The notes beneath the pieces are model-generated. The model was not told the origin of the DNA and ran no database searches. It saw nothing but the letters and a program-made list of their open reading frames with translations. 64,000 nucleotides of DNA from a virus (Duplodnaviria; Caudoviricetes): IMG/VR virus record IMGVR_UViG_3300027708_000013; one strand, given 5' to 3'. Shown here piece by piece: positions 15,378 through 31,219 of this stretch. The translations under genes and the position numbers were made by a program. Position 1 is the stretch's first letter. The number at the start of each line of letters is the position of its first letter.

Positions 15378-15400
15378 CAATCAACCAATAGTGTTGATTG
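15378..15400 (+). terminator. Hairpin at the end of the tail operon (possible terminator)
   Basis: CAATCAAC-caatagt-GTTGATTG 8-bp stem directly after the 15375 stop; the U-tract follows about 7 nt later, so the geometry is imperfect. Confidence 0.4.
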
Positions 15401-15422
15401 GATTGGCTTTTAATGTTACAAT
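15394..15422 (+). promoter_or_regulatory. sigma70-type promoter, probably producing a leaderless mRNA
   Basis: TTGATT-17 nt-TACAAT with a TG extension; ATG 15429 lies 6 nt after the -10. Confidence 0.6.
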
Positions 15423-15743: not shown

Positions 15744-16536
15744 GGGTGTTGTAGTATTTGCATTTAACACAGCTACAGTTGATTATGTTGCCATAGCAGA
15801 TCAAACTAGTAGATTAACTGCACATCATTTACAATTACCCATCACATTGATCACTGACCACGCCGCTGAACCCAAATTTGCATACGATGAAATCATAAGA
15901 GTCGACACCATCGGTGGCAATGTTCGCAACGACTTAAACAATCAACCAGTGGAATGGCGTAACTTTGGTAGATACCTGGCATACCAACTATCGCCCTATG
16001 ATGAAACAGTATTGCTGGATACAGATTATCTAGTACTGGACCACAGCATATTGAAACTGTGGGCCACGGAGTTTGATTACAAATTGATGCATGATAATCG
16101 AACAGCAAAGGGTATAGACACTAGCACCATGGGAGTGAATTCCTTGCCATTTGTTTGGGCCACTGTGGCGTTATTTAGACGCAGTGAACGTGCTCGATTG
16201 TTTTTCGATTTAATTGGTCGTGTGCAAAGAAACTATTCCTACTATAAAAGTTTGTACAGTATACACGAAACAAGTTACAGAAATGATTATGCTTTTGCCA
16301 TAGCCAATATAATATTGAACGGGTACACAGTGAATGCATCGCAAGGCATACCCTGGAGCATGTTTACTGTTGATCAAAAGATAGAACGGATGGCAATGAT
16401 AAATTCGCAAATTAGAATTTATCATCAGGCCACGGCAATAGTTGTACCCCGGCAATGCATACACGTGATGGATAAAGAATATTTACAAAGCGATAATTTT
16501 CAACAACTGGTAGAGGCAATAATTGAGTCAGCATAA
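15712..16536 (+). CDS. Putative GT-A fold (GT8-like) nucleotide-diphospho-sugar transferase
   Basis: LSPYDETVLLDTDYL (DxD), WATVALF and RND motifs. Confidence 0.6.
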   Translation: MQKLNNLEKSKGVVVFAFNTATVDYVAIADQTSRLTAHHLQLPITLITDHAAEPKFAYDEIIRVDTIGGNVRNDLNNQPVEWRNFGRYLAYQLSPYDETVLLDTDYLVLDHSILKLWATEFDYKLMHDNRTAKGIDTSTMGVNSLPFVWATVALFRRSERARLFFDLIGRVQRNYSYYKSLYSIHETSYRNDYAFAIANIILNGYTVNASQGIPWSMFTVDQKIERMAMINSQIRIYHQATAIVVPRQCIHVMDKEYLQSDNFQQLVEAIIESA

Positions 16537-17368
16537 AGAACCGCAAGGGTTCGTTACCTTTGCACAAAATACTGAAGAAGTGAATTACCTAGAACTGGCT
16601 TACTTGCAGTGCTTGAATGTCAAAGCCACGCAAAAGAACAACAGTTATGCTGTCATAGTGGACGCTGAAACTCGTGCTCTGGTAGAAGATCGCCATACCA
16701 AAACGTTTGATTACATCATTGATTTACCTGTGGATCACAACACCACCACTGCTAGATTTGCCAACGAGTATCAAGTGTTTGCTCTTACTCCGTTTAAAGA
16801 AACTGTCAAGTTGGAAAGCGATCTGTTGTTTACGCGAAGCATAGATCACTGGTGGACAGCATTTAGATTACGCGATGTTTGTCTCAGCACTGGTGCTAAA
16901 AATTATCGCGGCATACTATCCGGTGTAAGAAAATACCGACAGTTGTTTGATGAAAATAATTTACCCGATGTGTACAACGGTTTGATGTATTTTAGATATT
17001 CAAGACAGGCAGCGGATTTTTTCAACACAGCTGGTTTGATTTCACAGTGTTGGGATCTGTATCAAGAGCAATTGAAGAACTGTGCAGAAGAAACTCCCAG
17101 CACAGATGTGATATATGCCATTGCCGCATTGACAGTGGGCACAGATGCAGTTACTATGCCCAGTATGGACTTTATAAATTTTGTACACATGAAGTCAGGC
17201 TTCAACGGCTGGAGCGACACACAGAGTTGGTTGGACACAGTGGTGCATGAACGTGATGGCAATGTTGTACGTATCAACAACTTGAATCAATATCATCCAG
17301 TACACTACCATGACAAAACCTATGCCACCCAAGAGTTAACGGAATATTATGAATCAAGACGAACGTGA
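16523..17368 (+). CDS. GT8-like glycosyltransferase paralogue
   Basis: LTPFKETVKLESDLL aligns with the DxD region of 15712..16536; YNGLMYF; TTG start with AGAGG RBS. Confidence 0.55.
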   Translation: MSQHKEPQGFVTFAQNTEEVNYLELAYLQCLNVKATQKNNSYAVIVDAETRALVEDRHTKTFDYIIDLPVDHNTTTARFANEYQVFALTPFKETVKLESDLLFTRSIDHWWTAFRLRDVCLSTGAKNYRGILSGVRKYRQLFDENNLPDVYNGLMYFRYSRQAADFFNTAGLISQCWDLYQEQLKNCAEETPSTDVIYAIAALTVGTDAVTMPSMDFINFVHMKSGFNGWSDTQSWLDTVVHERDGNVVRINNLNQYHPVHYHDKTYATQELTEYYESRRT

Positions 17369-17708
17369 TTTTTGGGCACAAGTTGAAAGCCTGATCATCC
17401 CCATTCCTAAAGTTGAAATAGAATATAGATTGCACTACAATGAATTGGGCGAGATTGTTATGTGTAGTATGGCAGACCACCCTGAATCAAACCACTATGT
17501 TGTGGTATCAAAAGACAAATATGAACGATACTTTGATTATCGCATAGTTAAAGGACAATTAATAAAGATTGACCAAGCCAGCATTTATAGTGTAAAATTA
17601 ACTAAATCCAATACAGGCTACCGAACAGTAAAAAATCACGCTGGATTAATTATAGAGACTGGCGAATCATACTCGGAAACAGAATATTATGACCACAGAA
17701 ATCATTGA
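17349..17708 (+). CDS. Hypothetical protein
   Basis: 119-aa ORF overlapping both neighbours in the operon. Confidence 0.65.
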   Translation: MNQDERDFWAQVESLIIPIPKVEIEYRLHYNELGEIVMCSMADHPESNHYVVVSKDKYERYFDYRIVKGQLIKIDQASIYSVKLTKSNTGYRTVKNHAGLIIETGESYSETEYYDHRNH

Positions 17709-18585
17709 CGTTGCAGATTTAGATTGCATCTTTTTAACCTACAATGAACCCAATCGAGAAATCAATTGGATTAGAGTACAAAACATGGTGCCTTGGGCCA
17801 AGCGAGTAGATGGAGTCAAAGGATCGGATGCTGCACACAAGGCAGCGGCAGCGGCCAGTGACACTGATCGCTTTGTATTAATTGATGGTGACAACATTCC
17901 TGACCCTGAATTTTTTAATCTACAACTAGAGCTAGACGATACCAATCGTGACTGTGTATTTAGATGGCGGGCTAAAAATCACATAAATGGATTGATGTAT
18001 GGCAACGGTGGTGTCAGCTGTTGGACTCGAGAATTTATATACAACATGCGTACCCACGAAGCCACGGATGGTTCTGCAGAGAATGATGTAGAGTTTTGTT
18101 TTTATCCTAATTACTGGGCCATGCACGATTGTTATTCGACTACCTATCCCAATGCCACACCTGAACAGGCATGGCGAGCTGGATTCCGCGAAGGTGTCAA
18201 GATGTGTTTGGATCGTGGCGCAAGGCCCAACATGCCCGAATTTGAAAGACGTGTACACAATCGCAACTATGATCATTTATGCATTTGGCAAACTGTGGGC
18301 GCCGATGTCGAAAACGGATCATGGGCAATATACGGAGCAAGACTTGGCACATACATGACCATGATAGAAAAGTGGAACTATCGAGATGTACAAGACTTTG
18401 ATGTATTGGCAAGATTATGGCAAAGTTTTAAACAAGACGGCCCAGATCAATGTGCCAGTGTGGGAGAAACCTTACGCACACGCTTGGGATTGCCTATTGT
18501 AGACATGTCGGCTGATGCCAGTAGATTCTTCAAACATCATTACAAATCGCAGTTTAGAAATACTGGTCCCATGGCAAGAGAATGA
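17689..18585 (+). CDS. Putative GT-A (GT2-like) glycosyltransferase
   Basis: IFLTYNEP..VDGVKG..AH..FVLIDGDN (DxD); paralogous to the C-terminal domain of 35454..37487. Confidence 0.55.
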   Translation: MTTEIIDVADLDCIFLTYNEPNREINWIRVQNMVPWAKRVDGVKGSDAAHKAAAAASDTDRFVLIDGDNIPDPEFFNLQLELDDTNRDCVFRWRAKNHINGLMYGNGGVSCWTREFIYNMRTHEATDGSAENDVEFCFYPNYWAMHDCYSTTYPNATPEQAWRAGFREGVKMCLDRGARPNMPEFERRVHNRNYDHLCIWQTVGADVENGSWAIYGARLGTYMTMIEKWNYRDVQDFDVLARLWQSFKQDGPDQCASVGETLRTRLGLPIVDMSADASRFFKHHYKSQFRNTGPMARE

Positions 18586-18635
18586 TAAATTTAACAAATA
18601 GAGCCGGTGGTGGTTTAATTAAAGGATTTACATAA

Positions 18636-19355: not shown

Positions 19356-20299
19356 AATTTGTTATAATACCAGCTGATAATTTTATATGGAATCAATCGG
19401 AGTTAATGTCGTTCTTGGTGAACAATCAAGAGAAAGATATACTGTTGTCAGTTAATAGCGAAGGATGTTGCCTCAATGCTATTGGTGTATACAAAATTTT
19501 AGATTTATTTAAATTTAAATCAGTGACTATATTATCTAATAACATTTTTGAATCTCATAACACCTATAACATAGTTAATGCTCAATCTTACTTTAAATTT
19601 TTTCAGATTGAAAAAGAATACAAAGAGTATCATGTATGGAATAACTCTAAGCTGTTTGGAGCTCTGTACAATCGACCAATATGGCATCGAATTGGTATTG
19701 CAAGTCACTTGTATGCAAATCACAGGACAGTCAGCATGGTAAATTTTCGAGCCAACCCACATGATGAGGACAGTCGAACACTTTTTGAACTACAGTCCTT
19801 GTTTGAAACAGATCCTGCATCGGTTGAGAACTTTATACAAACATATAAAAAATTTCCCGCACTGCTGAAAGAATTTGACGACTATACTGTTGGAGCCACA
19901 ACAACGCAACACACCGACCAATTGTGCAAATTATACACTGAGTTTTTAATTGATATTGTAGCAGAAACATTCACCAGTGGTAAAACTTTTTTTGCTACTG
20001 AAAAAACAGTAAGACCAATATTGCTTAAAAAACCATTTATTATAATGGGCCCAAAGTGCTTTCTAATACATCTACGGCAAATGGGATTTAAAACATTTAA
20101 TGACTATTGGAGCGAAGATTACGATGGATATGAACCAAAACAAAAATACAAAATGATATTAGAATCGATAGATAATATAGCATCTAAATCACAGCAAGAA
20201 ATAAGTTCCATGTACGCAGACATGCAAGAAATATTGGAACACAATTATAATTTGCTAATCAATAAAAAATTTCTAACTAAATTGACCTATGTTGGATAA
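19352..20299 (+). CDS. GT10/fucosyltransferase-motif-like protein
   Basis: IVAETF..FATEKTVRPI..KPFII.G..LRQMGFKTF motif shared with three paralogues. Confidence 0.45.
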   Translation: MKFVIIPADNFIWNQSELMSFLVNNQEKDILLSVNSEGCCLNAIGVYKILDLFKFKSVTILSNNIFESHNTYNIVNAQSYFKFFQIEKEYKEYHVWNNSKLFGALYNRPIWHRIGIASHLYANHRTVSMVNFRANPHDEDSRTLFELQSLFETDPASVENFIQTYKKFPALLKEFDDYTVGATTTQHTDQLCKLYTEFLIDIVAETFTSGKTFFATEKTVRPILLKKPFIIMGPKCFLIHLRQMGFKTFNDYWSEDYDGYEPKQKYKMILESIDNIASKSQQEISSMYADMQEILEHNYNLLINKKFLTKLTYVG

Positions 20300-21674
20300 A
20301 AGCGTATTCATGTCAGCAGCCGAAGAGATGCAAGCAAAACTTGGCAACTCACTCTGCTTGGCCAAATGGCAACAAGTGAGCCTACATCTTCCCACCGGTC
20401 TCAATAATTCGTGTTACCATCCACCATTGCATGCCATAGATGCTGATGCTGTAAAACTCAATCCCAGTGCATTACACAACACCGAACACAAGAAACAGCA
20501 ACGCATCATCATGTTGAAAAATGAACAACCTGCAGAGTGTAGTTACTGTTGGAACATAGAACGACATGATCAATTAAGCGACAGACATTATAGGTCAGGA
20601 GAACCGTGGGCCGCAGAACACTACGAAGCAATCAAAAACTCTCGAGGAGATGAAGATGTTGTACCCAGTTATGTGGAAGTTAATTTTAATCATGCTTGTA
20701 ACCTTGCTTGCAGTTATTGTAGTCCGCAGTTTAGTTCAACATGGCAAGCGGAAGTGGATCGATGGGGAGGGTACCCAACTACAACAATTCATAACGACCC
20801 TAGTCATTTTACTGGTCGTAATAGGCCAATCCCGGCCAGTCATGAAAATCCTTACGTAGAGGCATTTTGGTCATGGTGGCCAGAACTGTACCCCAAACTG
20901 CGACACTTTAGAATGACCGGTGGTGAACCATTGATGGACCGCAACACTTATCGGGTATTTGATTATGTGTTGGCCATGCCAAAACCAGATCTACATTTAA
21001 ATGTCACCAGCAACTTCAGCGTGGACCAGGCGTTGTTTGAACGATATTTGGACTATGTAAAACAGTTATGTGCAATACAGATAGAACATTTCATGCAGTA
21101 TGTCAGCTTGGATTCTGGCAACATCAAACATGCAGAATATATCAGGCATGGTCTCAACATGAATAGATTACATGAATATGTCAACAGATATTTGACAGAA
21201 GTGCCCCACCGTAACAGTCTGACATTCATTATCACCATGAATAATTTAAGTGTGCTGGGCCTACAACGTCAATTGCAATGGATACTGGATTTAAGAAAAC
21301 GTCACAGCACCACATATCAACGTGTTTGGTTTGATACTCCCTTGCTACGCACACCCACCTGGCAAAGCCTACAGATACTGCCACCTGTATACACAGGTGT
21401 GTTGGAACGTGTGTCCGACTGGATGGAACTGAACTTGGAAACAGAGGAAGATCCATTCCAAGGTTTTAAAGACTACGAAGTACAACGCCTACGCAGAGAC
21501 ATAGCATGGATGCAGGAAGGTTGCAAGTTAGACCCCGACTATGTTAAACTACAACGTGCAGACTTTTATCGGTTCTTCAATGAACACGACAAAAGGCGTC
21601 AAACAGATTTTTTAACTACTTTTCCCGAAATGCGTGAATTTTGGAAAGAATGTGAATACCATGCCAAGAATTGA
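20289..21674 (+). CDS. Radical SAM enzyme with N-terminal twitch/SPASM-like domain
   Basis: CNLACSYC, MTGGEP; N-terminal CLAKW..SCYH..CSYCW. Confidence 0.85.
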   Translation: MLDKSVFMSAAEEMQAKLGNSLCLAKWQQVSLHLPTGLNNSCYHPPLHAIDADAVKLNPSALHNTEHKKQQRIIMLKNEQPAECSYCWNIERHDQLSDRHYRSGEPWAAEHYEAIKNSRGDEDVVPSYVEVNFNHACNLACSYCSPQFSSTWQAEVDRWGGYPTTTIHNDPSHFTGRNRPIPASHENPYVEAFWSWWPELYPKLRHFRMTGGEPLMDRNTYRVFDYVLAMPKPDLHLNVTSNFSVDQALFERYLDYVKQLCAIQIEHFMQYVSLDSGNIKHAEYIRHGLNMNRLHEYVNRYLTEVPHRNSLTFIITMNNLSVLGLQRQLQWILDLRKRHSTTYQRVWFDTPLLRTPTWQSLQILPPVYTGVLERVSDWMELNLETEEDPFQGFKDYEVQRLRRDIAWMQEGCKLDPDYVKLQRADFYRFFNEHDKRRQTDFLTTFPEMREFWKECEYHAKN

Positions 21675-23022
21675 CAATGAGACCGACTTAGAATACAAAA
21701 AAAGAGTAATTGACATCAAGAGCGAAAGCTTTTGTGCGGCCAAATGGTACAACGCCACCATATGGTTGGGATCAGGTCAAACCACCAGTTGTCATCATCC
21801 ATTACCACATGCCATAGATATCGACGAGATTCGAACCAATCCCAAGGCCATACACAACACACAACGGAAAAAAATGGAACGCGAACAGATGCAACGCGGA
21901 GAACGTCCCGCAGGTTGTGAGTACTGTTGGAAGATTGAAGACATCGGGCGAGACAACATAAGTGATAGAGTTTACAAAACAGTTATATATTCAGATGAGG
22001 ATTTGAGAAATGCATTCGCTAGGCCAGCCAGCACAGATGTGGATTTACAAACGCTTGAAATTGCTTTTGATCGCACATGCAATTTTGGGTGTAGTTACTG
22101 TAACCCTGCTTTCAGCAGCACTTGGGTTAAAGATATTGACACCATGGGTGCTTATACCGGCCTCACTTCAGACGGTAGGAATCATTACACTCATAATCAT
22201 GCAAGTAGTCAGCTTTATCGCTTTGGTGAAAGTAATCCTTACGTTGAAGCGTTCTTTGCATGGTGGGAGTCAGATCTCCATCGCACACTTCAGGAGCTTC
22301 GATTAACTGGTGGAGAGCCACTGATGTCGGGCGACACCTGGAGATTATTGGAATGGTTCAAGAACAACAACAGTCGAGTCAACCCTGACATGCGGTTTGC
22401 CATCAACAGCAATCTTGGCGCCAAACCAGAATTGATTGATCGACTTGTTGCGGCCGCCCACAGCATCAAGCATTTTCACCTGTACACCAGTAACGAAGCA
22501 ACAGGTGTACAAAGCGAATACATTCGTGATGGGCTGGTATGGGATACATGGACTGCCAATGTGGAACAGGTGTTGCGTGATGCTGACCTAGAAGGATTTC
22601 ACATTATGTGTACCATCAACGCATTATGCTTGGATAGTTTAACTGATTTTTTGGATCAATGCCTGGAGTGGAAAGACCTATGTGGCCGAGACTTCCCTAC
22701 ATTCTCACTAAATATATTACGCTTTCCAAGTTTTCAAAGTCCTTTAGTGTTGCCAGATGACATACGCAACGGCTATAAACTTAAATTACAAGCATGGTTC
22801 AACACAAATAAAAACAATCAGTTATTACATCAATTTGAAACCAATCAAGTACAACGCTTGATAGACTATTTAGATGTAGTCAAAACTCCGCATGTGGGTG
22901 CAGCAGAACAAAGCGTATTACAACAGGACTTTAAGAAATTTTATACACAATACGACCAACGCAGAGGCAAAAACTTTACAACAACATTTCCCAACCTAGC
23001 AGAATGGTATGACTCGTTCTAA
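21661..23022 (+). CDS. Radical SAM enzyme with N-terminal twitch/SPASM-like domain
   Basis: CNFGCSYC, LTGGEP; N-terminal CAAKW..SCHH..CEYCW. Start moved to ATG 21661. Confidence 0.85.
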   Translation: MPRIDNETDLEYKKRVIDIKSESFCAAKWYNATIWLGSGQTTSCHHPLPHAIDIDEIRTNPKAIHNTQRKKMEREQMQRGERPAGCEYCWKIEDIGRDNISDRVYKTVIYSDEDLRNAFARPASTDVDLQTLEIAFDRTCNFGCSYCNPAFSSTWVKDIDTMGAYTGLTSDGRNHYTHNHASSQLYRFGESNPYVEAFFAWWESDLHRTLQELRLTGGEPLMSGDTWRLLEWFKNNNSRVNPDMRFAINSNLGAKPELIDRLVAAAHSIKHFHLYTSNEATGVQSEYIRDGLVWDTWTANVEQVLRDADLEGFHIMCTINALCLDSLTDFLDQCLEWKDLCGRDFPTFSLNILRFPSFQSPLVLPDDIRNGYKLKLQAWFNTNKNNQLLHQFETNQVQRLIDYLDVVKTPHVGAAEQSVLQQDFKKFYTQYDQRRGKNFTTTFPNLAEWYDSF

Positions 23023-23749
23023 ATATAAAACACTACTAGTTTCGGGGTGCAGTTTTACACATAATGACTGTGAAGAGCATTTTGCTTGGGCAAATGATTT
23101 AGCAGTGTGGACTGGAATGAATATTATTAACCTAGCCATACCGGGTGCTGGCAACACTCACATTGCCAATAGCATCATGCTATATATTGAACAACACAAT
23201 TTAGATCCTGCTGACACATTAGTTATGGCCATGTGGTCGGGAGTGGCACGTATAGATTGGATAACAGACAAGTCGTTATCAAATTTTAAAAATGCATACC
23301 CATTTACTTACAATTATGATGGTTACAATGAGTTGGTTCTTGGCGGTAGTTGGTGGCACCCCAAACGCAGAACGCATATTGAGCAAACACTAGTTGAATA
23401 CAGCAAATATCAAAGCTCGCACAGTTTTGCATTACACAGTTGGTTATCAATGTCAAATTTGTCTAACTACCTAACAGTAAAAGGATTTGAATTCTATTAC
23501 TCATCGATAACAGATATCAAGAATACCAAAGAGTTATGGGTCGATTACAATAAAGAATTAACAGACTTGAATTTATCGATTGATAAAACAAAATGGATAG
23601 TACCATGCTTAGGTGACTACTGTAGAGATCTAGATTTATTGCAAGATGATAAGTTCCATCCCAGTATGCAAGGACACGAAACTTGGACTAAAGCAATAGC
23701 AATGCCATTTTTGGCTGAAAGAAATATATTGACATGGCAGACAACATAG
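23009..23749 (+). CDS. SGNH/GDSL-like protein
   Basis: LVSGCSFT, IPGAGN, DKFHPS. Confidence 0.6.
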   Translation: MTRSKYKTLLVSGCSFTHNDCEEHFAWANDLAVWTGMNIINLAIPGAGNTHIANSIMLYIEQHNLDPADTLVMAMWSGVARIDWITDKSLSNFKNAYPFTYNYDGYNELVLGGSWWHPKRRTHIEQTLVEYSKYQSSHSFALHSWLSMSNLSNYLTVKGFEFYYSSITDIKNTKELWVDYNKELTDLNLSIDKTKWIVPCLGDYCRDLDLLQDDKFHPSMQGHETWTKAIAMPFLAERNILTWQTT

Positions 23750-25050
23750 AAGATTATTACAAAAATTACAACTACGGTGCCCGCAAGCCCATTTATATCA
23801 AAGAATCAGAATTAACACCAGATCAACTTGATAGACTAGTAAAAAGCGATGAGTTCTGCATGATCCCTTGGATACACATGCATGCCTTCCCGGATGGTCG
23901 TGCTTATCCCTGTTGTTTAAGTGAGCCCGATCATCCTGTTGGCAATCTCAAAACACACACCATGCGTGAAATATGGAATGATGCACCGCTGAAACAAATG
24001 CGAGTCAACATGCTGAACAACGTTCCATCAAAAGAATGTACTAAATGTTACGAACAAGAGAAAAGTCGCTTGTTTAGTATGAGAGAAAGTGCTAACAAAA
24101 ACTTTGGACATCATATTGGCCTAGTGGACAACACACGGCCCGATGGTCAGTACGATGATTTTAAATTACGCTACTACGACATTCGCTTCAGTAACCTTTG
24201 CAATTTTGCCTGCAGAACTTGTGGTGGTATCTTCTCTAGCAATTGGCACAAAGACGAAAAGGCCGCAGGATGGGATCCGAAGCATCCACAGATAATGTAT
24301 GCCGGACGAGACAAAGGTGACATGTGGCAACAGATGCAAGAGCACATTCCTCACTTGGAACAAATCTACTGGGCCGGCGGCGAACCCCTGATCATGGAAG
24401 AACATTGGAAAGTGTTAGACGAGCTGGTTCGACGTGAAATGTTTCATGTACGACTAATTTATAACACAAACTTCAGTGAACTCAAATTCAAAGGTCGTGA
24501 TGTACTTGAGATGTGGAAACTGTTTGACTGTGTCAGCATAGGTGCCAGCCTTGATGGTAGTTATCAGCGTGGAGAGTACATACGCAAAGGGCAAAACTGG
24601 AAAGAAACTGTAGAGAACCGTGAGCGTATGTTGAAGATTTGTCCCAACGTGGATTTCTATGTATCGAGTACAGTCAGCATGATGAACGTGTTGCACATCA
24701 CAGACTTTCATAGAGAATGGGTGGATCTGGGACTGTTACGCCCAATGGATTGGAACATAAACATACTACAACATCCACATCGCTATCGTGTAGATGTACT
24801 GCCTGAACCGTTAAAATTGCAAGCACAAGATAAAATTCAAACACATTTAGAATGGTTACGTCCCTTGGATACATTATCCCGTGCCACTTCGGGGTACGAA
24901 GGTGTAGTCAACTTTATGATGGCACAAGACAGCACACATGAATTACCTAGTTTCTTTAAAACTAATAATCTAATAGATCAAGTACGCAGTGAAGATTTCT
25001 TTGCAGTGTTTCCAGAATTAAAGGCGATACAACAATATGACCCTTCCTGA
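23734..25050 (+). CDS. Radical SAM enzyme with N-terminal twitch/SPASM-like domain
   Basis: CNFACRTC, AGGEP; N-terminal CMIPW..PCC..CTKC. Confidence 0.85.
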   Translation: MADNIEDYYKNYNYGARKPIYIKESELTPDQLDRLVKSDEFCMIPWIHMHAFPDGRAYPCCLSEPDHPVGNLKTHTMREIWNDAPLKQMRVNMLNNVPSKECTKCYEQEKSRLFSMRESANKNFGHHIGLVDNTRPDGQYDDFKLRYYDIRFSNLCNFACRTCGGIFSSNWHKDEKAAGWDPKHPQIMYAGRDKGDMWQQMQEHIPHLEQIYWAGGEPLIMEEHWKVLDELVRREMFHVRLIYNTNFSELKFKGRDVLEMWKLFDCVSIGASLDGSYQRGEYIRKGQNWKETVENRERMLKICPNVDFYVSSTVSMMNVLHITDFHREWVDLGLLRPMDWNINILQHPHRYRVDVLPEPLKLQAQDKIQTHLEWLRPLDTLSRATSGYEGVVNFMMAQDSTHELPSFFKTNNLIDQVRSEDFFAVFPELKAIQQYDPS

Positions 25051-26254
25051 CACAATTTGTATGCTACCATGGATCAGTGTGGAGGCCAGTCCCATGGGCA
25101 CTGTACGGCCTTGCTGTTTGGCTCATGATGAGATCCCAGATGAGCAAGGAGTCAAGTACGATTTAAACAACACCGATCTTGAAACTGCGTATCACAGTGA
25201 GTATATGCAGGAGTTACGTAGGCAATTTCGTGCAGGTGCAAAGCCTGCCACCTGTACACGTTGTTGGGACGAAGAAGCCGCTGGCCGAGCCAGCAAAAGA
25301 ATACACACACAGATAAGACTAAAGGAATTATACCCAAAAGTGGACTGGGCAAACGATGACCCGGATCAACTGTGGTTTGTGGATTTGAAACTGGGAAACA
25401 TTTGCAATCTCAAATGTCGTATATGTGGCTCGTGGAGTAGCAGCAAGTGGGCTGAAGAGGAAATGGCCTACTTGCCCGCAGGCGTAGACAAAAAATCACA
25501 CATAGCCTATACCTGGTTACGACAGGGTGCATGGCCACGCAAGACTGCTACATTCTGGGACAACATGAGGTCATTGTTGCCCAATATACGGTATATAGAA
25601 TTCACCGGCGGTGAACCCTGGCTGATTGAAGAACATTTTGATCTTTTAAAGTATGCAGTGTTGCGTGGACACAGCAAGCATATTGACATTCATTACAACA
25701 CCAATGCCACACAAGAACCCTCACAAGAACATTTTAATTTATGGGACGAGTTCGGCCGTGTGGATATTGCGTTTAGCGTTGACAATGTTGGGGATAGATT
25801 TGAATATGAACGCTACGGTGCAAAATGGGATCAAGCAAATACAATAGTTGACAAAATACATGGTTTTAGAACATTTCGCCACGGTTCTATTACTACACAG
25901 TTATGTTTCACTATTAATATACAGAATGTCTACTACTTAGATGAGCTACTTGCCTGGGCCGACACAAAAAAGTTTGGTAGTGTGTACTTTAACATGTTGC
26001 ACAGTCCTGACCATATGAGCATACAGAACATGACACCAGCTGCACAAGAATTAGTGTTGAACAAACTCAAAACCGTATTTTGGACCAGCAGTAAATACCA
26101 ACAAGAAATTGACAGTGTAATTCGATTTATAGAACTTGGCTCGGGCAGTGATGGTCAAGAGTTTTTAAGACAGATGCAACAGACCGATGCTTATCGCAAG
26201 CAGTGTTTCGCGGATACACACCTAGAAATAGCCAAGGCAATGGGATATAAATAA
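25037..26254 (+). CDS. Radical SAM enzyme with N-terminal twitch/SPASM-like domain
   Basis: CNLKCRIC, TGGEP; N-terminal CMLPW..PCC..CTRCW. Confidence 0.85.
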   Translation: MTLPDTICMLPWISVEASPMGTVRPCCLAHDEIPDEQGVKYDLNNTDLETAYHSEYMQELRRQFRAGAKPATCTRCWDEEAAGRASKRIHTQIRLKELYPKVDWANDDPDQLWFVDLKLGNICNLKCRICGSWSSSKWAEEEMAYLPAGVDKKSHIAYTWLRQGAWPRKTATFWDNMRSLLPNIRYIEFTGGEPWLIEEHFDLLKYAVLRGHSKHIDIHYNTNATQEPSQEHFNLWDEFGRVDIAFSVDNVGDRFEYERYGAKWDQANTIVDKIHGFRTFRHGSITTQLCFTINIQNVYYLDELLAWADTKKFGSVYFNMLHSPDHMSIQNMTPAAQELVLNKLKTVFWTSSKYQQEIDSVIRFIELGSGSDGQEFLRQMQQTDAYRKQCFADTHLEIAKAMGYK

Positions 26255-27318
26255 TGCATCTTCAGCTTTGGGACATGTCATATTATTCCGGGGATTTAGC
26301 CTATTATAATTACCCGTGCGACAAAGAATTTGGTGATTTGTTATTTTTTTTAAAAAGAATAAAGACAAGGAAAAAAATTCACCTGACAGACATAATCCAT
26401 TGGAAAATGAAATATCCCTCAAAGGGATATGATGTATATATAATCTGTGCTTTTGGGGAATTTGTCAATGAAGAGTTTTTAAATCTAATAGATCAAGACA
26501 AGTACTTCAATAACAAGATGGTAATTTTATTAACTTCGCAGTATTGGGAGCCGAATAAATTCAACACAATAAAAGTATTTTATTTAGAACATTTACAAAC
26601 AATAATTAGATTTTTTAAACCAACAGAATCAAAAAATATTAAACAAAGAATCTACACACACGGAATATTATCTAGACGTACAACATTTCATAAAAGTTAT
26701 ATCTTGATAAATCTATTAGAACGTTTTTCAAAGGATCTACAGTATACATTTTGTAACGAGCCCGAGCACGAATATAGTTTAGAAAAATTGAGTCAAACTC
26801 TAGATATGTACTATCCTGGATTAACGCCAACCGATGCTCAATTAAATTTATTGACATATTTACACAACAATCCAACTGTAGTTGAGGGGCATCAGTGGTC
26901 GGTTGACAACAGGATTTATACAGAATCTCAACTGATTTGGACCACAGAGTCTATATTTTTATCTAGGCATAATGCCCCTACTGCATACCTAACTGAAAAA
27001 ACAATTAAATCACTGGTCAGTAGAACTCCGTTTATTATAGTAGGACAAAAACACAGTTACGCTAGAATAAAATCGTTGGGGTTCCTGGACTATACAGATG
27101 AATTCAACATACAGTTTGATGATTTATCCGATCTTGATCGTTTCGCAGGTGTAATTAATTTAATGGATACGTTTGATTTCGCTAGTTTTTTAACATCATC
27201 AACAGCACAAGAAATGGCAGATTATAATTATCATTATTTTTTCGATGGATTTGTTGATCATGCTAATCGACAAAATGAAGAAAAAATAGAACACATACTG
27301 GAATTTGTCAATGCATAA
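26254..27318 (+). CDS. GT10-motif-like protein
   Basis: TTES..YLTEKTIKS..TPFIIVG..LGF; AT-rich gene. Confidence 0.45.
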   Translation: MHLQLWDMSYYSGDLAYYNYPCDKEFGDLLFFLKRIKTRKKIHLTDIIHWKMKYPSKGYDVYIICAFGEFVNEEFLNLIDQDKYFNNKMVILLTSQYWEPNKFNTIKVFYLEHLQTIIRFFKPTESKNIKQRIYTHGILSRRTTFHKSYILINLLERFSKDLQYTFCNEPEHEYSLEKLSQTLDMYYPGLTPTDAQLNLLTYLHNNPTVVEGHQWSVDNRIYTESQLIWTTESIFLSRHNAPTAYLTEKTIKSLVSRTPFIIVGQKHSYARIKSLGFLDYTDEFNIQFDDLSDLDRFAGVINLMDTFDFASFLTSSTAQEMADYNYHYFFDGFVDHANRQNEEKIEHILEFVNA

Positions 27319-28600
27319 ACCCACCACTTTATGTATGGCTCCTTGGACACACACTTATCTAAGCCCACAAACAGAAAGAAGAATGTGCTGTGCATCAAGA
27401 GAACCAGCACAAAATTTTGAGCAATACATAGACACAGCTGCTGGCACAGGCGAATATCGACCCATTACTTTAGACCAACACTGGAACAGTGAACACATGC
27501 GTAGTGTGAGACGTAGAATGATGGCAGGCGAAACCCTACCCGAGTGTACTGTGTGCAATGATCAACTGCTCAACACAGATGTTTACCGCAGTTATTTCAA
27601 CAACATGTTTGGCAATAAGTATGAGTATGCAATGGCAAACACAGATGCTGGGGGATACACCACTGTAAAACCAGTATCGTGGGATTATAGATTTAGCAAT
27701 CTTTGTAACTTCAAATGCCGTATGTGCGGTGACATGTTGAGCAGTAGTTGGGAAACAGAACAACGCCAACACAACATGATTGACTACACAAATCCAAAAA
27801 ACAATTGGATGCGGCCCGAAGTTAAACAACAGATCTCTCAGTTTCAAGACACACAAATTGAAGCAGAATTCAGTGAGGCAGTGGAACAGCATAGAATAGA
27901 AGAAGTATATTGGGTAGGTGGCGAACCCCTGATGTATGAACAGCATTGGCGGTACATGAAAAGAATAATAGAATTGGGAGACGGAAAAAATGTTTACGCT
28001 AGATACAATACAAATCTCAGTAGGGTTGATCATCGTGGTGTTAATCTCTATCGGGACATACTGGCTGGGCTACGTGACTGGCAAATCTGTGCAAGCATCG
28101 ATGGCACGGGACGAATTGGAGAGTATATTAGATCAGGTCTTGATTTTACTCAATGGCTTGCAAACATCCGCCAAGGAATTGAGATCCAACGTCATAGCCG
28201 CCAAATCCGTTTGGACTTCACTCTTACTACACCAGGACTCTTTGAAGTACAAAAGATACAATCGCTCGCAAAAGAACTCGGAGTAGATGTATTAGCCAAA
28301 GTGGTTTTTAGTTTCACACCAGACATTGTCATGAGCCCGTTGGCCTTACCTCGAGAGTTATTACATCCTTGGGTGGACGAAATCATTGCCGAGTTAAAGC
28401 CCGGTGCCCTACAGGATATACTTGTCCAGCTGAAAACTAGACCCACCTTCGAGGAACAGTGGCCAGATACCTATTCAGCAGGACTCAAAAAGGGCAAACG
28501 CCGCATAGAAACACTTGAATCTATCCGACGAGACGTGTATACTATGAAGGATATACTGGCAGAACGACCTGCGGTATTGACATGGTGGAATTCAATATGA
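27311..28600 (+). CDS. Radical SAM enzyme with N-terminal twitch/SPASM-like domain
   Basis: CNFKCRMC, VGGEP; N-terminal CMAPW..MCC..CTVC. ATG at 27311. Confidence 0.85.
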   Translation: MHKPTTLCMAPWTHTYLSPQTERRMCCASREPAQNFEQYIDTAAGTGEYRPITLDQHWNSEHMRSVRRRMMAGETLPECTVCNDQLLNTDVYRSYFNNMFGNKYEYAMANTDAGGYTTVKPVSWDYRFSNLCNFKCRMCGDMLSSSWETEQRQHNMIDYTNPKNNWMRPEVKQQISQFQDTQIEAEFSEAVEQHRIEEVYWVGGEPLMYEQHWRYMKRIIELGDGKNVYARYNTNLSRVDHRGVNLYRDILAGLRDWQICASIDGTGRIGEYIRSGLDFTQWLANIRQGIEIQRHSRQIRLDFTLTTPGLFEVQKIQSLAKELGVDVLAKVVFSFTPDIVMSPLALPRELLHPWVDEIIAELKPGALQDILVQLKTRPTFEEQWPDTYSAGLKKGKRRIETLESIRRDVYTMKDILAERPAVLTWWNSI

Positions 28601-29682
28601 CAATGAATAAAGTTCGAATAGTACTACGCAATCCCCTGAATCATCAAGAACAGATGGACTACACTATTGTTGCCAACGACTCTGAACTGGCACAGGATTG
28701 GATTTCAGCTTTAAAATTATTACTACAGAGTGGAAAACTGCTGGAGAAGAACTTTTGCTTCATGGGCTTCCCCCGAACCGCCAGAAACTTGGATTATTTG
28801 TGTGGGGAATTAAATCAACATGTAACGACAATTAATGATTTTTTCTTTGATTATCAAATTGCGGAAACATTCTCTCCCGACTCAGTGCGTGGACGTGACT
28901 ATGCTGAAAATGGTATCAACCATGCAGTAATGAATCGTCTACACAATCACTTTGAACAATTGCAAGGCACAGTGGATGACCTAAGCACCTATTACCGAAA
29001 CGCAAATTATGACGTCAAGTATGCCATACGTCAGTTAAATAATCTTTGTCACGAAATGGAAGGTTTGATACTGAGTCAGCGTAAGTTAACAACTGACCCT
29101 TACTGGGTACGTCCCAGTCAGATCACTACATTCTTAAATGCTGACAGGTACGATTTAAAAGATGCACATAGATCGGGGTTTGTTGCCAACGGATATGATC
29201 GAGTACAGGGTGGTGTTTACATGCACTGGACACAGATAGGCAAGACCCTGTTTGAAGTGTTCCGTGATGAATCGGCTCCACGATTGACAGCCGCAACATG
29301 CGAAGCAGTTACAGAATTGAAATATTACTCGGGCGAGTTTGACGTAGAGTGGGGAAATGATGTTGTGCGTAACAGTGGGCACCCGTGGCATGACAAAGAG
29401 CAAAGTCATTTTGAGGCTTGGTTAATTGAAAATGGAAGAGATTCCAGAGATGCTAAACTTAGTCTAGGATACCTGCCCTTGGGACAGGTTGACTTACTGG
29501 GTAGTTTTGGTACTATGGATTATCGAACAATTTGGAATATATTGTCCTCACACTTGGACATTTACAAGATAGAAGTAGACGGTGTAGCACAGACATTTGA
29601 CTATTGCTGGAGTGATGCCACTTACCAACAACAGCAAATCAACATGATGAGGCCTGGGTATGATTATAGTAGCCGGGGGTGA
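28597..29682 (+). CDS. Hypothetical protein in the radical SAM cluster
   Basis: ATGA overlap with the upstream stop at 28598-28600; about 361 aa; no motif recognised. Confidence 0.75.
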   Translation: MTMNKVRIVLRNPLNHQEQMDYTIVANDSELAQDWISALKLLLQSGKLLEKNFCFMGFPRTARNLDYLCGELNQHVTTINDFFFDYQIAETFSPDSVRGRDYAENGINHAVMNRLHNHFEQLQGTVDDLSTYYRNANYDVKYAIRQLNNLCHEMEGLILSQRKLTTDPYWVRPSQITTFLNADRYDLKDAHRSGFVANGYDRVQGGVYMHWTQIGKTLFEVFRDESAPRLTAATCEAVTELKYYSGEFDVEWGNDVVRNSGHPWHDKEQSHFEAWLIENGRDSRDAKLSLGYLPLGQVDLLGSFGTMDYRTIWNILSSHLDIYKIEVDGVAQTFDYCWSDATYQQQQINMMRPGYDYSSRG

Positions 29683-30478
29683 CAGTTTTGTATATGGTGC
29701 AGAATTAAAAGACTGTGCAGGAAAACCCAGTGAATCAACTTGGCCTGCACTGCTATCAAAAAATATCAACGCTGAATATACATGTGTTGCTGAAAGCGGA
29801 AATGCCAACAACGCCATTGCACGCCAATTAATGACTGCTTGCGAAGCACGTAAACATCAAGACTTGTTTGTAATAGTTCAATGGACATTCACACACAGGT
29901 ATGAATTCAGATTCAACTACAACACTCAACGCAGATCCTCGCCTTGGCACAGTATCAATTTATGGGATATAGTGGACGATCCAGCCAGTTTAAAAAAAGA
30001 GTTTGTTACTTTTGATTCCGCAGTATTTGATGCTCATGTAAACAATAAATTAATGCTGGATAATTCTGGGCTGACAGATTTTGCCAAAACATTTTACAAG
30101 CATGTGGGCAACAACGAGTATTATGAAACCTATACCAGTTTAAAAGAAATACTGTTCTTACAACAATATTTAGAAATAAATAAAATACCGTACTTGTTTG
30201 CACCAGCTGACATTTATTTAGAAAATAGTGATGCTTATCTTAGACACAGTGCAGATGTCACAATGCAGTCAATTTATAATCAAATTGATTGGAGTCGTTG
30301 GTACTCGTTTCCTTGCGGAACAGGAGCAGATCAAACAACAACTCCAAGAGGTTTTTACCAGTGGGCAGTAGAGAATAAATACCCTATAGGCACCACACAT
30401 CCATTAGAACCGGCCCATCAAGCAGCCGCCAACTTAATACAGGAGAAATTCAATGAACTGGTTACGAAATCTATATAA
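29660..30478 (+). CDS. SGNH/GDSL-like protein
   Basis: VAGGDSFV, ESGNAN, THPL. Confidence 0.6.
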   Translation: MIIVAGGDSFVYGAELKDCAGKPSESTWPALLSKNINAEYTCVAESGNANNAIARQLMTACEARKHQDLFVIVQWTFTHRYEFRFNYNTQRRSSPWHSINLWDIVDDPASLKKEFVTFDSAVFDAHVNNKLMLDNSGLTDFAKTFYKHVGNNEYYETYTSLKEILFLQQYLEINKIPYLFAPADIYLENSDAYLRHSADVTMQSIYNQIDWSRWYSFPCGTGADQTTTPRGFYQWAVENKYPIGTTHPLEPAHQAAANLIQEKFNELVTKSI

Positions 30479-30554
30479 CAGAATTGTACTAGAACGACGT
30501 TATCGTAAGAAGTTAAAAGAGTTGCGTCGAAGAGATCCGTTTATTTACAAATGA
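30453..30554 (+). CDS. Small basic peptide MNWLRNLYNRIVLERRYRKKLKELRRRDPFIYK (33 aa; absent from the ORF track)
   Basis: AGGAG RBS at 30441-30445, ATG at 30453, TGA overlapping the next ATG (ATGA at 30551-30554); fills the gap between two genes exactly. Confidence 0.8.
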   Translation: MNWLRNLYNRIVLERRYRKKLKELRRRDPFIYK

Positions 30555-31219
30555 TTAACCGTATATTAGCAGTGGGTGACAGTTTTACCTACGGTGACGA
30601 ACTAACCGATCTTGCCACAGCTTACCCTGCTTTACTGGCACAACAATTTGGTGCACAAGTTGATAATCAAGCTAGGCCAGGATCAGGCAACACACGAATG
30701 GTTAGAACTGTTGTTGATCATGTGGGTCGTAACAGTCCTGTGGCAATTGATCGAGCTGATTTGATCATCATTGGTTGGAGTAGCCCCGGAAGAATAGAAT
30801 TTGCAGATGCCACTGGCGTTTACGACATATGGCCTGGATATTCAGGCAACATGTTTACCCGCGAAGGTCAGTCCTGGCGACTGGAACTAATAGACTACAT
30901 AAGCAAATATCATGATCCACAATATTTGTACCAACAATATTTGCTAAATGTCATCATGTTGCAGAATTTTTTAAAAAGTCACAATCAACGTTATGTTATG
31001 TTGAACACAGTCAGCAACGAATATTATCACAACACTTACTATTCGCAATTTGCACATCTAACACAATTAGTAGATGCAGAACATTATTTAGGATGGCCTC
31101 GAGAGGGCATGGCAGAATGGACTCAAAGTTGTCCGCGTGGTGCCGGTGGGCATTTTTTAGAAGAAGGTCACCAACAAGTGGCAGAAAAAATATATCATCA
31201 TGTCAATTCTAGGAGTTAG
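30551..31219 (+). CDS. SGNH/GDSL-like protein
   Basis: LAVGDSFTYG, RPGSGN, GHFL. Confidence 0.65.
   Translation: MINRILAVGDSFTYGDELTDLATAYPALLAQQFGAQVDNQARPGSGNTRMVRTVVDHVGRNSPVAIDRADLIIIGWSSPGRIEFADATGVYDIWPGYSGNMFTREGQSWRLELIDYISKYHDPQYLYQQYLLNVIMLQNFLKSHNQRYVMLNTVSNEYYHNTYYSQFAHLTQLVDAEHYLGWPREGMAEWTQSCPRGAGGHFLEEGHQQVAEKIYHHVNSRS

What the first reader, a model, noticed from the sequence alone, without database searches (positions are those of the whole stretch)
20289..28600. Five paralogous radical SAM enzymes with the auxiliary-cluster domain placed N-terminally
Seen: all five have CxxxCxxC and GGEP cores preceded by a Cys-rich segment (C..(P/K)W..C(C/H/Y)..CxxC). They fall into two subtypes: 20289/21661 (C.AKW..SC.H) and 23734/25037/27311 (CM.PW..CC). 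Known: twitch/SPASM domains are normally C-terminal; twitch enzymes such as BtrN oxidise sugars/aminocyclitols, while SPASM enzymes modify peptides. Inference: a permuted, expanded radical SAM family acting sequentially on an unknown substrate.
Basis: partly seen in the sequence, partly recalled or inferred. Interest (0 to 1): 0.75.

Follow-up and report, generated by a model that had tools for sequence, protein, structure and literature searches.

The report
Five N-terminal-twitch radical SAM enzymes
An uncultured giant lake phage carries five old, very different copies of an untested iron-sulfur "radical SAM" enzyme whose helper iron-sulfur module sits at the front instead of the back; the same five-gene set recurs in many phages among sugar-handling genes behind the tail fibres, so it most likely edits a sugar coat by chemistry nobody has tested.

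Summary
All five ORFs are full-length members of the curated but uncharacterised NCBIfam family NF033640 (N_Twi_rSAM), scoring 286-403 bits against a cut-off of 170. Each has CX3CX2C, GGEP and four invariant N-terminal Cys.

New here: a profile of the N-terminal module finds only BtrN in the whole PDB (E 6.7e-7). It aligns to BtrN's C-terminal twitch with all four Cys in register, so the domain order really is permuted.

The five are 19-32% identical. Each forms its own clade. All five are kept in the order 1-5 in 64 of 80 related viral contigs. Four have a sister paralog in one chromosomal array of a Bacteriovoracaceae genome.

They are the core of a soluble, roughly 18.7-kb cassette behind the tail-fibre genes. 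It also holds GT8-like transferases, SGNH/DUF6071 proteins, a 33-aa microprotein, a NodU-type carbamoyltransferase and a kinase-nucleotidyltransferase.

The substrate is not shown. A sugar or glycan is the best guess (about 0.5). A protein substrate is the main rival.

The architecture is already named, and I found no paper on a characterised member. This scan has noted such arrays before on other DNA (85 notes, at least 77 genomes). The cultured Ralstonia phage RsoM2USA carries a minimal module and is a possible test bed.

The parts
20289..21674 (+). rSAM1, 461 aa, N_Twi_rSAM subtype A. Twitch Cys C23/C42/C84/C87 (nt 20355-20549), CX3CX2C at nt 20697-20720, GGEP at nt 20919-20930. Two further Cys are conserved in its orthologs: C261 (94%) and C455 (97%).
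   Evidence: NF033640 290 bits, positions 2-397 of 398; motifs; ortholog Cys conservation in 68 sequences; own clade, SH-aLRT 99
21661..23022 (+). rSAM2, 453 aa from the ATG at 21661 (a GTG at 21634 is also open), subtype A. Twitch at nt 21733-21927, CX3CX2C at nt 22078-22101, GGEP at nt 22309-22320. One extra conserved Cys: C332 in the numbering from the GTG start. It is 53% identical to gp202 of the cultured Ralstonia phage RsoM2USA.
   Evidence: NF033640 309 bits
23009..23749 (+). SGNH/DUF6071-like protein, 246 aa, sitting in a variable slot between rSAM2 and rSAM3. It is found in only 2 of the related loci.
   Evidence: Pfam DUF6071 E 5e-4, below the cut-off; rarity
23734..25050 (+). rSAM3, 438 aa, subtype B. 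Twitch Cys C42/C60(C61)/C102/C105 (nt 23857-24048), CX3CX2C at nt 24199-24222, GGEP at nt 24376-24387. No further invariant Cys.
   Evidence: NF033640 403 bits; Pfam SPASM on residues 42-106, E 4e-12; AlphaFold2 model pLDDT 94.5, pTM 0.91
25037..26254 (+). rSAM4, 405 aa, subtype B. Twitch at nt 25058-25264, CX3CX2C at nt 25403-25426, GGEP at nt 25607-25618. One extra invariant Cys: C290.
   Evidence: NF033640 329 bits; Pfam SPASM on residues 8-77
26254..27318 (+). Unknown 354-aa protein in a variable slot, with a weak likeness to GT10 fucosyltransferases. No ortholog was found in the 80 related loci.
   Evidence: Atlas feature score 0.81 to GT10 clusters, a lead only
27311..28600 (+). rSAM5, 429 aa from the ATG at 27311, subtype B. 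Twitch at nt 27332-27556, CX3CX2C at nt 27704-27727, GGEP at nt 27917-27928. One extra invariant Cys: C262 in the numbering from the TTG start.
   Evidence: NF033640 286 bits; Pfam SPASM on residues 10-85, exactly at the cut-off
15429..18585 (+). Upstream conserved block of the cassette: a 104-aa unknown, two paralogous GT8-like GT-A proteins (15712-16536 with DTD, 16523-17368 with ESD at the metal motif), a 119-aa unknown, and a GT-A-like 298-aa protein with an LIDGDN motif.
   Evidence: Profile of the 281-aa protein hits glycogenin (GT8), E 5e-4; the two are paralogs, hhalign probability 97.5%; the 298-aa protein has only a weak Pfam GT2 hit, E 0.0018; the block is kept in 59-73 related loci
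28582..29682 (+). Conserved 366-aa partner of unknown function. The model shows a cyclophilin-like barrel with a helical insert.
   Evidence: Present in 68 loci; model pLDDT 89.9; best PDB Z 9.5, not telling; only unnamed cellular relatives
29660..32675 (+). Conserved tail block: SGNH/DUF6071 (29660-30478), a 33-aa microprotein ending RDPFIYK (30453-30554), SGNH/DUF6071 (30551-31219), and a NodU/CmcH-type carbamoyltransferase (31200-32675).
   Evidence: Pfam; NodU; the peptide is conserved in 70-71 of 80 loci and in RsoM2USA
33368..34159 (+). Last gene of the cassette: a fusion of a P-loop (APS-kinase-like) kinase with a nucleotidyltransferase-like domain.
   Evidence: Pfam APS_kinase on residues 5-90; NCBIfam NMN-adenylyltransferase-like on residues 156-224, far below the cut-off
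14479..15375 (+). A 298-aa Ser/Thr-rich (31%) fibre-like protein directly upstream, followed by a terminator-like hairpin at 15372-15406. It is a candidate acceptor of the glycan; this is inference only.
   Evidence: Composition; kept in 59 loci in the same position; hairpin

Best explanation
The five genes encode five non-redundant, anciently diverged members of the curated but biochemically untested family N_Twi_rSAM (NF033640). Each has a radical SAM core (CX3CX2C for the SAM-cleaving [4Fe-4S] cluster, plus GGEP). In front of the core, not behind it, sits a BtrN-type twitch module whose four Cys should hold one auxiliary [4Fe-4S] cluster. They form the conserved centre of a soluble, single-strand cassette of about 18.7 kb (15429-34159) directly behind the tail-fibre genes of an uncultured freshwater jumbo phage. 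The cassette also holds GT8-like and other GT-A-like transferases, SGNH/DUF6071 proteins, a microprotein, a NodU-type carbamoyltransferase and a kinase-nucleotidyltransferase.

Most likely mechanism (inferred): each enzyme removes a hydrogen atom from a different C-H of a sugar residue or sugar nucleotide of a phage-made glycan. The substrate radical is then either oxidised through the twitch cluster (BtrN-like alcohol-to-ketone chemistry) or quenched from the other face by a conserved Cys (epimerisation). This would turn common host sugars into unusual ones, which are further carbamoylated or acylated. The glycan probably ends up on a cytoplasmic acceptor such as the Ser/Thr-rich fibre protein encoded just upstream.

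Shown: family membership, cluster motifs, twitch homology and permuted order, orthology, and collinear retention of the five. Inferred: cluster binding, the substrate class, the reaction types and the acceptor.
For: Membership: NF033640 at 286-403 bits against a cut-off of 170, full length.

Motifs: seven Cys and GGEP are invariant among the five, and the seven cluster Cys are 97-100% conserved in 66-72 orthologs of each.

Twitch homology: Pfam SPASM matches the N-termini of rSAM3/4/5. The profile of the N-terminal module (82 sequences) has BtrN as its only significant PDB hit, E 6.7e-7. It aligns to BtrN chain positions 167-242, with Cys at 169, 187, 232 and 235 aligned to the four family Cys. 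From my own knowledge (Goldman et al. 2013, not re-read here), these are BtrN's auxiliary-cluster ligands, and BtrN oxidises an aminocyclitol.

Fold: the model has pLDDT 94.5 and pTM 0.91, with a beta-hairpin between the first two Cys. The core's best matches are enzymes of the SPASM/twitch group, including the sugar enzymes BlsE (Z 12.6) and DesII (Z 12.4).

Pathway unit: 64 of 80 viral loci hold all five orthologs, always in the order 1-5 on one strand. Each orthogroup is a clade, SH-aLRT 97-100. The Bacteriovoracaceae chromosomal array has a sister paralog to rSAM1, 2, 4 and 5.

Sugar context in the window: a GT8-like pair, the carbamoyltransferase (E 4e-49), SGNH proteins, and a DegT aminotransferase with an NDP-sugar epimerase/dehydratase 4-6 kb downstream.

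Sugar context elsewhere: one homolog is fused to a GT2 domain. The commonest Pfam families among 119 bacterial neighbours are GT2 (7), PhyH (6) and GDSL (3). A GT2 and a sugar-type nucleotidyltransferase lie beside the Bacteriovoracaceae array.

Cytoplasmic acceptor: no cassette protein has a membrane-spanning segment.

Possible H-donor Cys: rSAM1, 2, 4 and 5 each keep a further conserved Cys in the core.
Against: No member of the family has been characterised; I found no paper on one. The substrate class therefore rests on gene neighbourhood alone.

The core's structural neighbours are tied between sugar enzymes (BlsE, DesII) and peptide or protein enzymes (anSME, CteB, SkfB, SuiB), all at Z 12.2-12.6.

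Most fusion partners found were protein-binding repeats (TPR, Sel1, ankyrin), not sugar enzymes.

The glycosyltransferase calls in this window are weak: E 5e-4 for the GT8-like pair, and sub-threshold for the 298-aa and GT10-like proteins.

The minimal module in RsoM2USA has no recognisable glycosyltransferase among the genes examined.

The position of the auxiliary cluster relative to the active site could not be measured, because no coordinates are available to the tools.
Confidence: 0.5

Rival explanations
1. The five enzymes act directly on a protein, for example the Ser/Thr-rich fibre protein or another virion protein. They would oxidise, epimerise or cross-link side chains, as anSME, EpeE or the sactisynthases do. 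The transferases in the cassette would then be a separate decoration step.
For: Core structural neighbours include anSME (Z 12.6), SuiB (12.5), CteB (12.3), SkfB (12.2) and EpeE (10.5). Homologs are fused to TPR, Sel1 and ankyrin repeats, which usually bind proteins. The cassette directly follows the fibre genes. All cassette proteins are soluble.
Against: No RRE or other peptide-recognition domain was detected. The twitch module's only PDB sequence relative is the aminocyclitol enzyme BtrN, not a peptide maturase. Bacterial neighbourhoods show GT2, PhyH and GDSL rather than peptidases or exporters. TPR domains are also fused to glycosyltransferases that act on protein-bound glycans (my own knowledge), so the fusions do not discriminate.
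Confidence: 0.2
2. The cassette makes a diffusible sugar-derived small molecule, such as an aminoglycoside-like or nucleoside-like compound, rather than a virion or cell-surface glycan. The radical SAM enzymes would be its tailoring steps.
For: BtrN, BlsE and DesII are all antibiotic-pathway enzymes. The carbamoyltransferase family includes aminoglycoside and Nod-factor carbamoylases. There is an aminotransferase and a kinase nearby. All proteins are soluble. A cyanophage paper calls similar genes 'antibiotic synthesis genes' (PMC12801897).
Against: No scaffold-forming enzyme, such as an inosose synthase, was seen. The cassette is fixed behind the fibre genes in 80 phage contigs. No exporter or self-resistance gene was seen.
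Confidence: 0.1
3. The enzymes modify nucleotides or the phage's DNA, in the manner of viperin, QueE or MoaA, or as part of a base hypermodification.
For: Weak core matches to viperin, QueE and MoaA. Glycosyltransferases and kinases also occur in DNA hypermodification pathways (my own knowledge).
Against: Those matches cover only the common core and are far below the family cut-offs. The cassette lies with the fibre genes on the + strand, apart from the nucleotide-metabolism block on the - strand. Bacterial homologs sit beside GT2, PhyH and GDSL genes.
Confidence: 0.08
4. The conserved 33-aa peptide ending RDPFIYK is a ribosomal precursor that one or more of the radical SAM enzymes modify at its C-terminal Tyr. 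This would be a PQQ-like or mycofactocin-like route to a peptide-derived molecule that is then glycosylated.
For: The peptide is kept in 70-71 of 80 loci, with an invariant tail. It also occurs, unannotated, next to the single rSAM2 ortholog in RsoM2USA. PqqE and MftC are SPASM enzymes that act on Tyr-containing peptides (my own knowledge; MftC is the top reviewed-protein match for the core).
Against: Among the bacterial loci, peptides with a PFIY-type tail occur only where a carbamoyltransferase is present (L108, L159). They are absent from about 70 other loci that have N_Twi genes. Those bacterial peptides have a hydrophobic middle like SxtK/DUF5989 (my own recall; Pfam found nothing). There is one peptide for five enzymes, and no RRE was found.
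Confidence: 0.05

Closest known systems
NCBIfam NF033640, N_Twi_rSAM ('twitch domain-containing radical SAM protein')
   Same: All five match the whole 398-position model far above its cut-off. They have the same N-terminal four-Cys module, CX3CX2C and GGEP.
   Different: Nothing differs at the family level. The family itself has no characterised member, no solved structure and no hit over its cut-off in 14 model genomes. What this locus adds is five fixed orthogroups acting as a set in a phage.
BtrN (butirosin 2-deoxy-scyllo-inosamine dehydrogenase, PDB 4M7S/4M7T), the founding twitch enzyme
   Same: The N-terminal module is homologous to BtrN's twitch (E 6.7e-7), with the spacing C-x17/18-C-x41/44-CxxC and even a shared C-M-x-P start. 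This implies a single auxiliary cluster ligated by four Cys, and a carbohydrate-type substrate is plausible.
   Different: In BtrN the twitch follows the core; here it precedes the core by about 50 residues and a helical linker. These proteins are 405-461 aa, with an extra C-terminal helical region. BtrN is not among the 50 best structural matches of the core. The reaction is unknown.
SPASM/twitch enzymes with solved structures: anSME, BlsE, DesII, CteB, SkfB, SuiB
   Same: These are the best structural matches of the radical SAM core (Z 12.2-12.6 over about 210-235 residues).
   Different: Only residues about 145-400 align. Their auxiliary domains are C-terminal. SPASM proteins carry seven or eight Cys for two auxiliary clusters, whereas only four are present here.
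Radical SAM cassettes noted in the host-recognition cluster of pelagimyophages and in T4-like environmental viral genomes (PMC7029224, PMC5332604)
   Same: T4-like aquatic phages carry several radical SAM genes; in the pelagimyophages these sit next to tail-fibre and glycosyltransferase genes.
   Different: Those papers only record the genes. They name no family, no twitch permutation and no orthogroup structure.

Membership tests
NF033640 N_Twi_rSAM | Whole-protein HMM score at or above the curated cut-off (170 bits), with end-to-end coverage | tested here: met
   290, 309, 403, 329 and 286 bits; profile positions 1/2 to 385-398 of 398
NF033640 N_Twi_rSAM | Twitch-type Cys module on the N-terminal side of the CX3CX2C motif | tested here: met
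   Four invariant Cys lie 50-55 residues upstream of CX3CX2C. Pfam SPASM matches the N-terminus in three of the five. There is profile homology to the BtrN twitch.
Radical SAM superfamily | CX3CX2C cluster motif and the GGE SAM-binding motif in a partial TIM barrel | tested here: met
   The motifs are invariant. The model's core aligns to solved radical SAM barrels at Z up to 12.6. Pfam PF04055 is over its cut-off for rSAM3 and rSAM4 only, and below it for the other three.
Radical SAM superfamily | Binds [4Fe-4S] and cleaves SAM reductively | not testable with these tools
   Needs anaerobic reconstitution, iron and sulfide counts, EPR and a 5'-deoxyadenosine assay
SPASM subfamily (two auxiliary clusters) | Seven- or eight-Cys motif, including CX2CX5CX3C, for a second auxiliary cluster | tested here: not met
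   Only four Cys are conserved in the module; no CX2CX5CX3C is present. The module is therefore twitch, not full SPASM.
BtrN-like twitch dehydrogenases | Twitch domain C-terminal to the core, small (about 250 aa) enzyme, oxidation of a secondary alcohol on a cyclitol or sugar | tested here: not met
   Twitch homology is met, but the domain order is reversed and the proteins are 405-461 aa. The reaction cannot be tested here. It may work like BtrN, but it is not a member.
RiPP radical SAM maturases (sactisynthase, PqqE or MftC type) | RRE or PqqD-like peptide-recognition domain, and a precursor peptide gene that travels with the enzyme | tested here: inconclusive
   No RRE was detected by Pfam or NCBIfam. 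The only small conserved peptide tracks the carbamoyltransferase.

The most novel reading that the evidence does not exclude
The five enzymes are a post-assembly glycan-editing set. Each would be a radical C-H epimerase or dehydrogenase aimed at a different position of a simple host-sugar chain already attached to a virion fibre protein. The phage could then make rare sugars on its receptor-binding apparatus without any dedicated nucleotide-sugar pathway. That would be a kind of carbohydrate chemistry and virion decoration not described for any phage.
Probability: 0.2. Interest if true: 0.85.

Novelty: new member of a known kind. Interest (0 to 1): 0.55.

Why it matters
N_Twi_rSAM is a very large enzyme family: over a thousand clusters at 50% identity, and thousands of phage variants. 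It has no characterised member, no solved structure and no representative in model organisms. A fixed, collinear set of five in hundreds of aquatic phages, mirrored in a predatory bacterium, marks a conserved multi-step pathway of unknown radical chemistry. That pathway sits where phages decide host recognition. The direct sequence link of the N-terminal module to the BtrN twitch gives a concrete hypothesis to test: one auxiliary cluster and redox chemistry on a carbohydrate. The minimal module in the cultured Ralstonia phage RsoM2USA offers a system in which to test it.

Tried and rejected
1. Sequence search of rSAM3 against all PDB chains found nothing significant.

2. Foldseek and VIA searches of the whole model found only common-core matches, and no structure with the same architecture. 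BtrN was not among the 50 best core matches.

3. The conserved 366-aa partner was folded to learn the pathway. It has a cyclophilin-like barrel with a helical insert, Z at most 9.5, and only unnamed relatives, so it says nothing about function.

4. The GT-A-like 298-aa protein, as a single sequence and as a profile, found no glycosyltransferase in the PDB. The 274-aa GT8-like protein and one SGNH protein alone also found nothing.

5. Pfam on the 33-aa peptide and its RsoM2USA counterpart gave no hit, DUF5989 included.

6. A recurrent N-terminal extension of about 130 aa (DISNFFV motif) in some homologs gave only a marginal partial match to ARF GTPases. It showed no likeness to the window's two GT10-like proteins.

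7. The T4 late-promoter word TATAAATA occurs once in the window, which is fewer than chance would give.

8. No whole genome is held for the window, so phage-encoded Fe-S assembly or reductase genes could not be sought.

9. Megablast of the region against isolate phages found no match. PHROGs has only weak generic radical SAM hits.

10. Short exact contigs of the cassette occur in two lake metatranscriptome libraries. No silent control stretch was laid, and DNA carry-over is not excluded, so transcription is not shown.

11. Four literature searches for a characterised N-terminal-twitch enzyme found none.

Full report
**What is there**

The span 20289-28600 holds seven overlapping or abutting + strand genes. 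Five of them are radical SAM proteins of 405-461 aa. Against NCBIfam, all five match one model end to end: NF033640, N_Twi_rSAM, 'twitch domain-containing radical SAM protein'. Scores are 286-403 bits against a curated cut-off of 170. Every other radical SAM family scores far below its own cut-off. Pfam sees the Radical_SAM core in all five, though over its cut-off in only two. It also places a SPASM domain at the N-terminus of rSAM3, rSAM4 and rSAM5.

An alignment of the five shows 19-32% identity. The 453 aa obtained for the second gene is the length of most close relatives listed.

**Is the N-terminal module really a twitch domain?**

I cut the N-terminal module (rSAM3 residues 38-135) out of 82 family members, including all five paralogs. 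I then searched the resulting profile against every PDB sequence. The only significant hit is BtrN (4M7S/4M7T), E 6.7e-7. Profile positions 3-75 align to BtrN chain positions 167-242, which is its C-terminal end. The four family Cys fall on BtrN Cys at chain positions 169, 187, 232 and 235, and both sequences begin C-M-x-P. From my own knowledge (Goldman et al. 2013, not re-read here), this stretch is BtrN's twitch domain, and these Cys ligate its auxiliary [4Fe-4S] cluster.

The AlphaFold2 model of rSAM3 is confident (pLDDT 94.5, pTM 0.91). It places a beta-hairpin between the first two Cys and a helix starting at the CxxC, as expected for a twitch. There are four conserved Cys and no CX2CX5CX3C, so this is a twitch with one auxiliary cluster, not a full SPASM. 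The domain order is therefore genuinely reversed relative to BtrN and to every solved SPASM/twitch enzyme. I could not test whether the module sits on the same face of the barrel as in BtrN, because no coordinates are available.

**The core**

By sequence, rSAM3 has no solved relative. By structure, residues about 145-400 match the radical SAM cores of anSME, BlsE, SuiB, DesII, CteB and SkfB, all tied at Z 12.2-12.6. Viperin and MoaA follow at about 11.5. Reviewed UniProt proteins give the same picture, with MftC, SkfB and AlbA on top. The core thus belongs to the SPASM/twitch group, but it does not tell sugar substrates from peptide substrates.

**Size and spread of the family**

An exhaustive search with rSAM3 finds 10047 clusters at 50% identity at E<=0.001, and 1383 at E<=1e-30. 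rSAM2 alone has at least 8000 relatives at 90% clustering. Nearly all are from metagenomes, and they are named at most 'organic radical activating enzyme'. No hit over the cut-off occurs in 14 model genomes. In species-representative genomes the family is found mostly in Bdellovibrionota, Elusimicrobiota and Bacteroidota, often in many copies. I found no paper on a characterised member. Two papers merely record several radical SAM genes in T4-like aquatic phages; in the pelagimyophages they lie next to fibre and glycosyltransferase genes.

**The five are a fixed set**

Eighty viral contigs encode an rSAM3 relative at 49-91% identity. In 64 of them all five orthologs are present, always in the order 1-2-3-4-5 on one strand. 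Most of the other 16 are cut by contig ends. Extra genes are inserted only at the junctions, and the SGNH gene at 23009 and the unknown at 26254 of this window are two such inserts.

In a tree, each orthogroup is a clade (SH-aLRT 97-100), and rSAM1 plus rSAM2 form a clade (100). One chromosomal array in a Bacteriovoracaceae genome holds a sister paralog to rSAM1, rSAM2, rSAM4 and rSAM5. That contig also carries phosphofructokinase, phosphoglycerate mutase and Obg, so it is bacterial. The set is therefore older than this phage lineage, or it moves as a set.

Beyond the seven cluster Cys, rSAM1, 2, 4 and 5 each keep a further conserved Cys in the core, while rSAM3 keeps none. These are candidate hydrogen donors, as in radical epimerases, but that is only a lead.

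**Surroundings**

The window is phage DNA, with tail-fibre-like proteins upstream and phage nucleases and an ATPase downstream. Earlier notes call it an uncultured freshwater jumbo phage.

Directly behind the fibre genes lies a 298-aa protein with 31% Ser+Thr, followed by a terminator-like hairpin. After that come 20 coupled + strand genes, running from 15429 to 34159:
- a 104-aa unknown;
- two paralogous GT8-like proteins (their profile hits glycogenin at E 5e-4);
- a 119-aa unknown;
- a GT-A-like protein, with weak evidence only;
- SGNH/DUF6071 proteins;
- two weakly GT10-like unknowns;
- the five radical SAM genes;
- a conserved 366-aa unknown;
- a 33-aa microprotein;
- a NodU-type carbamoyltransferase;
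- a 230-aa unknown (32666-33358, no family match);
- a kinase-nucleotidyltransferase fusion.

None of these proteins has a membrane-spanning segment. That argues against a Gtr-type change of the host O-antigen and for a cytoplasmic acceptor. A DegT aminotransferase and an NDP-sugar epimerase/dehydratase lie 4-6 kb further on, on the other strand. They are kept in only about five of the related loci.

**Evidence on the substrate from elsewhere**

- One homolog is fused to a GT2 domain. Others are fused to TPR, Sel1 or ankyrin repeats, or to a second copy of the enzyme.
- Among 119 neighbours of the gene in 15 bacterial loci, the commonest Pfam families are GT2 (7), PhyH dioxygenase (6) and GDSL (3). 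One carbamoyltransferase and one sulfotransferase were also found.
- A GT2 and a sugar-type nucleotidyltransferase lie beside the Bacteriovoracaceae array, and a carbamoyltransferase lies about 10 kb away.

This favours a carbohydrate, but weakly. The repeat-domain fusions keep a protein substrate in play.

**A cultured handle**

The Ralstonia jumbo phage RsoM2USA, whose genes in this region are all annotated 'hypothetical', carries a minimal module. It consists of SGNH, the rSAM2 ortholog (53% identity), SGNH, an unannotated micro-ORF ending QDPFIYK, SGNH, and a carbamoyltransferase (45% identity).

**The 33-aa peptide**

The peptide is strikingly conserved: it is present in 70-71 of 80 loci, with an invariant tail RDPFIYK. 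In the bacterial loci, small ORFs with a PFIY-type tail appear only beside a carbamoyltransferase (L108, L159), and there they carry a hydrophobic middle. The peptide therefore belongs with the carbamoyltransferase. Earlier notes of this scan read such peptides as SxtK-like tyrosine shuttles, which I did not test. It is unlikely to be the radical SAM substrate.

**Verdict**

The reading 'permuted twitch, expanded family' is supported. The permutation is now tied by sequence to BtrN, but the architecture is already a named family, and this scan has met such arrays before (85 notes in at least 77 genomes). Function is inferred.

My best reading is five position-specific radical C-H oxidations or epimerisations on a phage-made glycan, probably on a fibre protein (confidence about 0.5). 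The rivals are a protein substrate (0.2), a small molecule (0.1), nucleotides or DNA (0.08) and the peptide (0.05).

In two lake metatranscriptome libraries, short exact contigs cover parts of the cassette, but this does not show transcription.

Noticed in passing
window 30453-30554 (+); L001:14231-14338 (RsoM2USA, unannotated gap between gp201 and gp200): A 33-aa basic microprotein ending RDPFIYK is more conserved than the enzymes around it. It is present in 70-71 of 80 viral loci, and in the distant cultured phage RsoM2USA as an unannotated ORF. In the bacterial loci L108 and L159, peptides with the same kind of head and a PFIY-type tail, but with a hydrophobic middle, sit beside carbamoyltransferases. 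The phage form looks like a membrane-less version of these.
   Followed up: partly
window 14479-15375 (+) and 15372-15406: The 298-aa protein with 31% Ser+Thr and no Cys is the last gene of the fibre block, and it is kept in this position in 59 related loci. A 14-pair terminator-like hairpin follows its stop codon, and a promoter-like site (15394-15422) precedes the cassette.
   Followed up: partly
L088 and L089 (two contigs of 183 kb and 148 kb binned as a Haliscomenobacter MAG): L088 carries the complete phage cassette in the same gene order. L089 carries an rSAM3 relative and the same RDPFIYK peptide. They are phage contigs in a bacterial bin, which is either mis-binning or a hint of the host. 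Several short MAG contigs with over 50% identity (L082-L087) look the same.
   Followed up: no
window 28582-29682 (+): The 366-aa partner kept in 68 loci folds confidently into a cyclophilin-like barrel with a long helical insert. It has unnamed relatives in cellular genomes (TM 0.78), and no function could be read from it.
   Followed up: yes
proteins P0010, P0013, P0033, P0036 and about 15 more (homologs): Many homologs carry a shared N-terminal extension of about 130 aa, with a conserved ...NERIIF...LQ..LN..DISNFFV... motif, that matches no Pfam family. Others are tandem double enzymes of 790-1100 aa.
   Followed up: partly
window 34295-35455 (-); L088: The convergent 386-aa, Cys-rich unknown gene after the cassette has relatives in 30 loci. 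In L088 it appears three times, once inserted between rSAM1 and rSAM2, so it behaves like another optional tailoring gene.
   Followed up: no
window 33368-34159 (+): A fusion of an APS-kinase-like P-loop domain (residues 5-90) with a nucleotidyltransferase-like domain (residues 156-224, far below the family cut-offs). It is kept in 39 related loci as the last gene of the cassette.
   Followed up: no
window 26246-26253: The only exact TATAAATA (the T4 late-promoter word) in the window lies directly before the start of the inserted 354-aa gene. One match is fewer than chance would give, so it may mean nothing.
   Followed up: no
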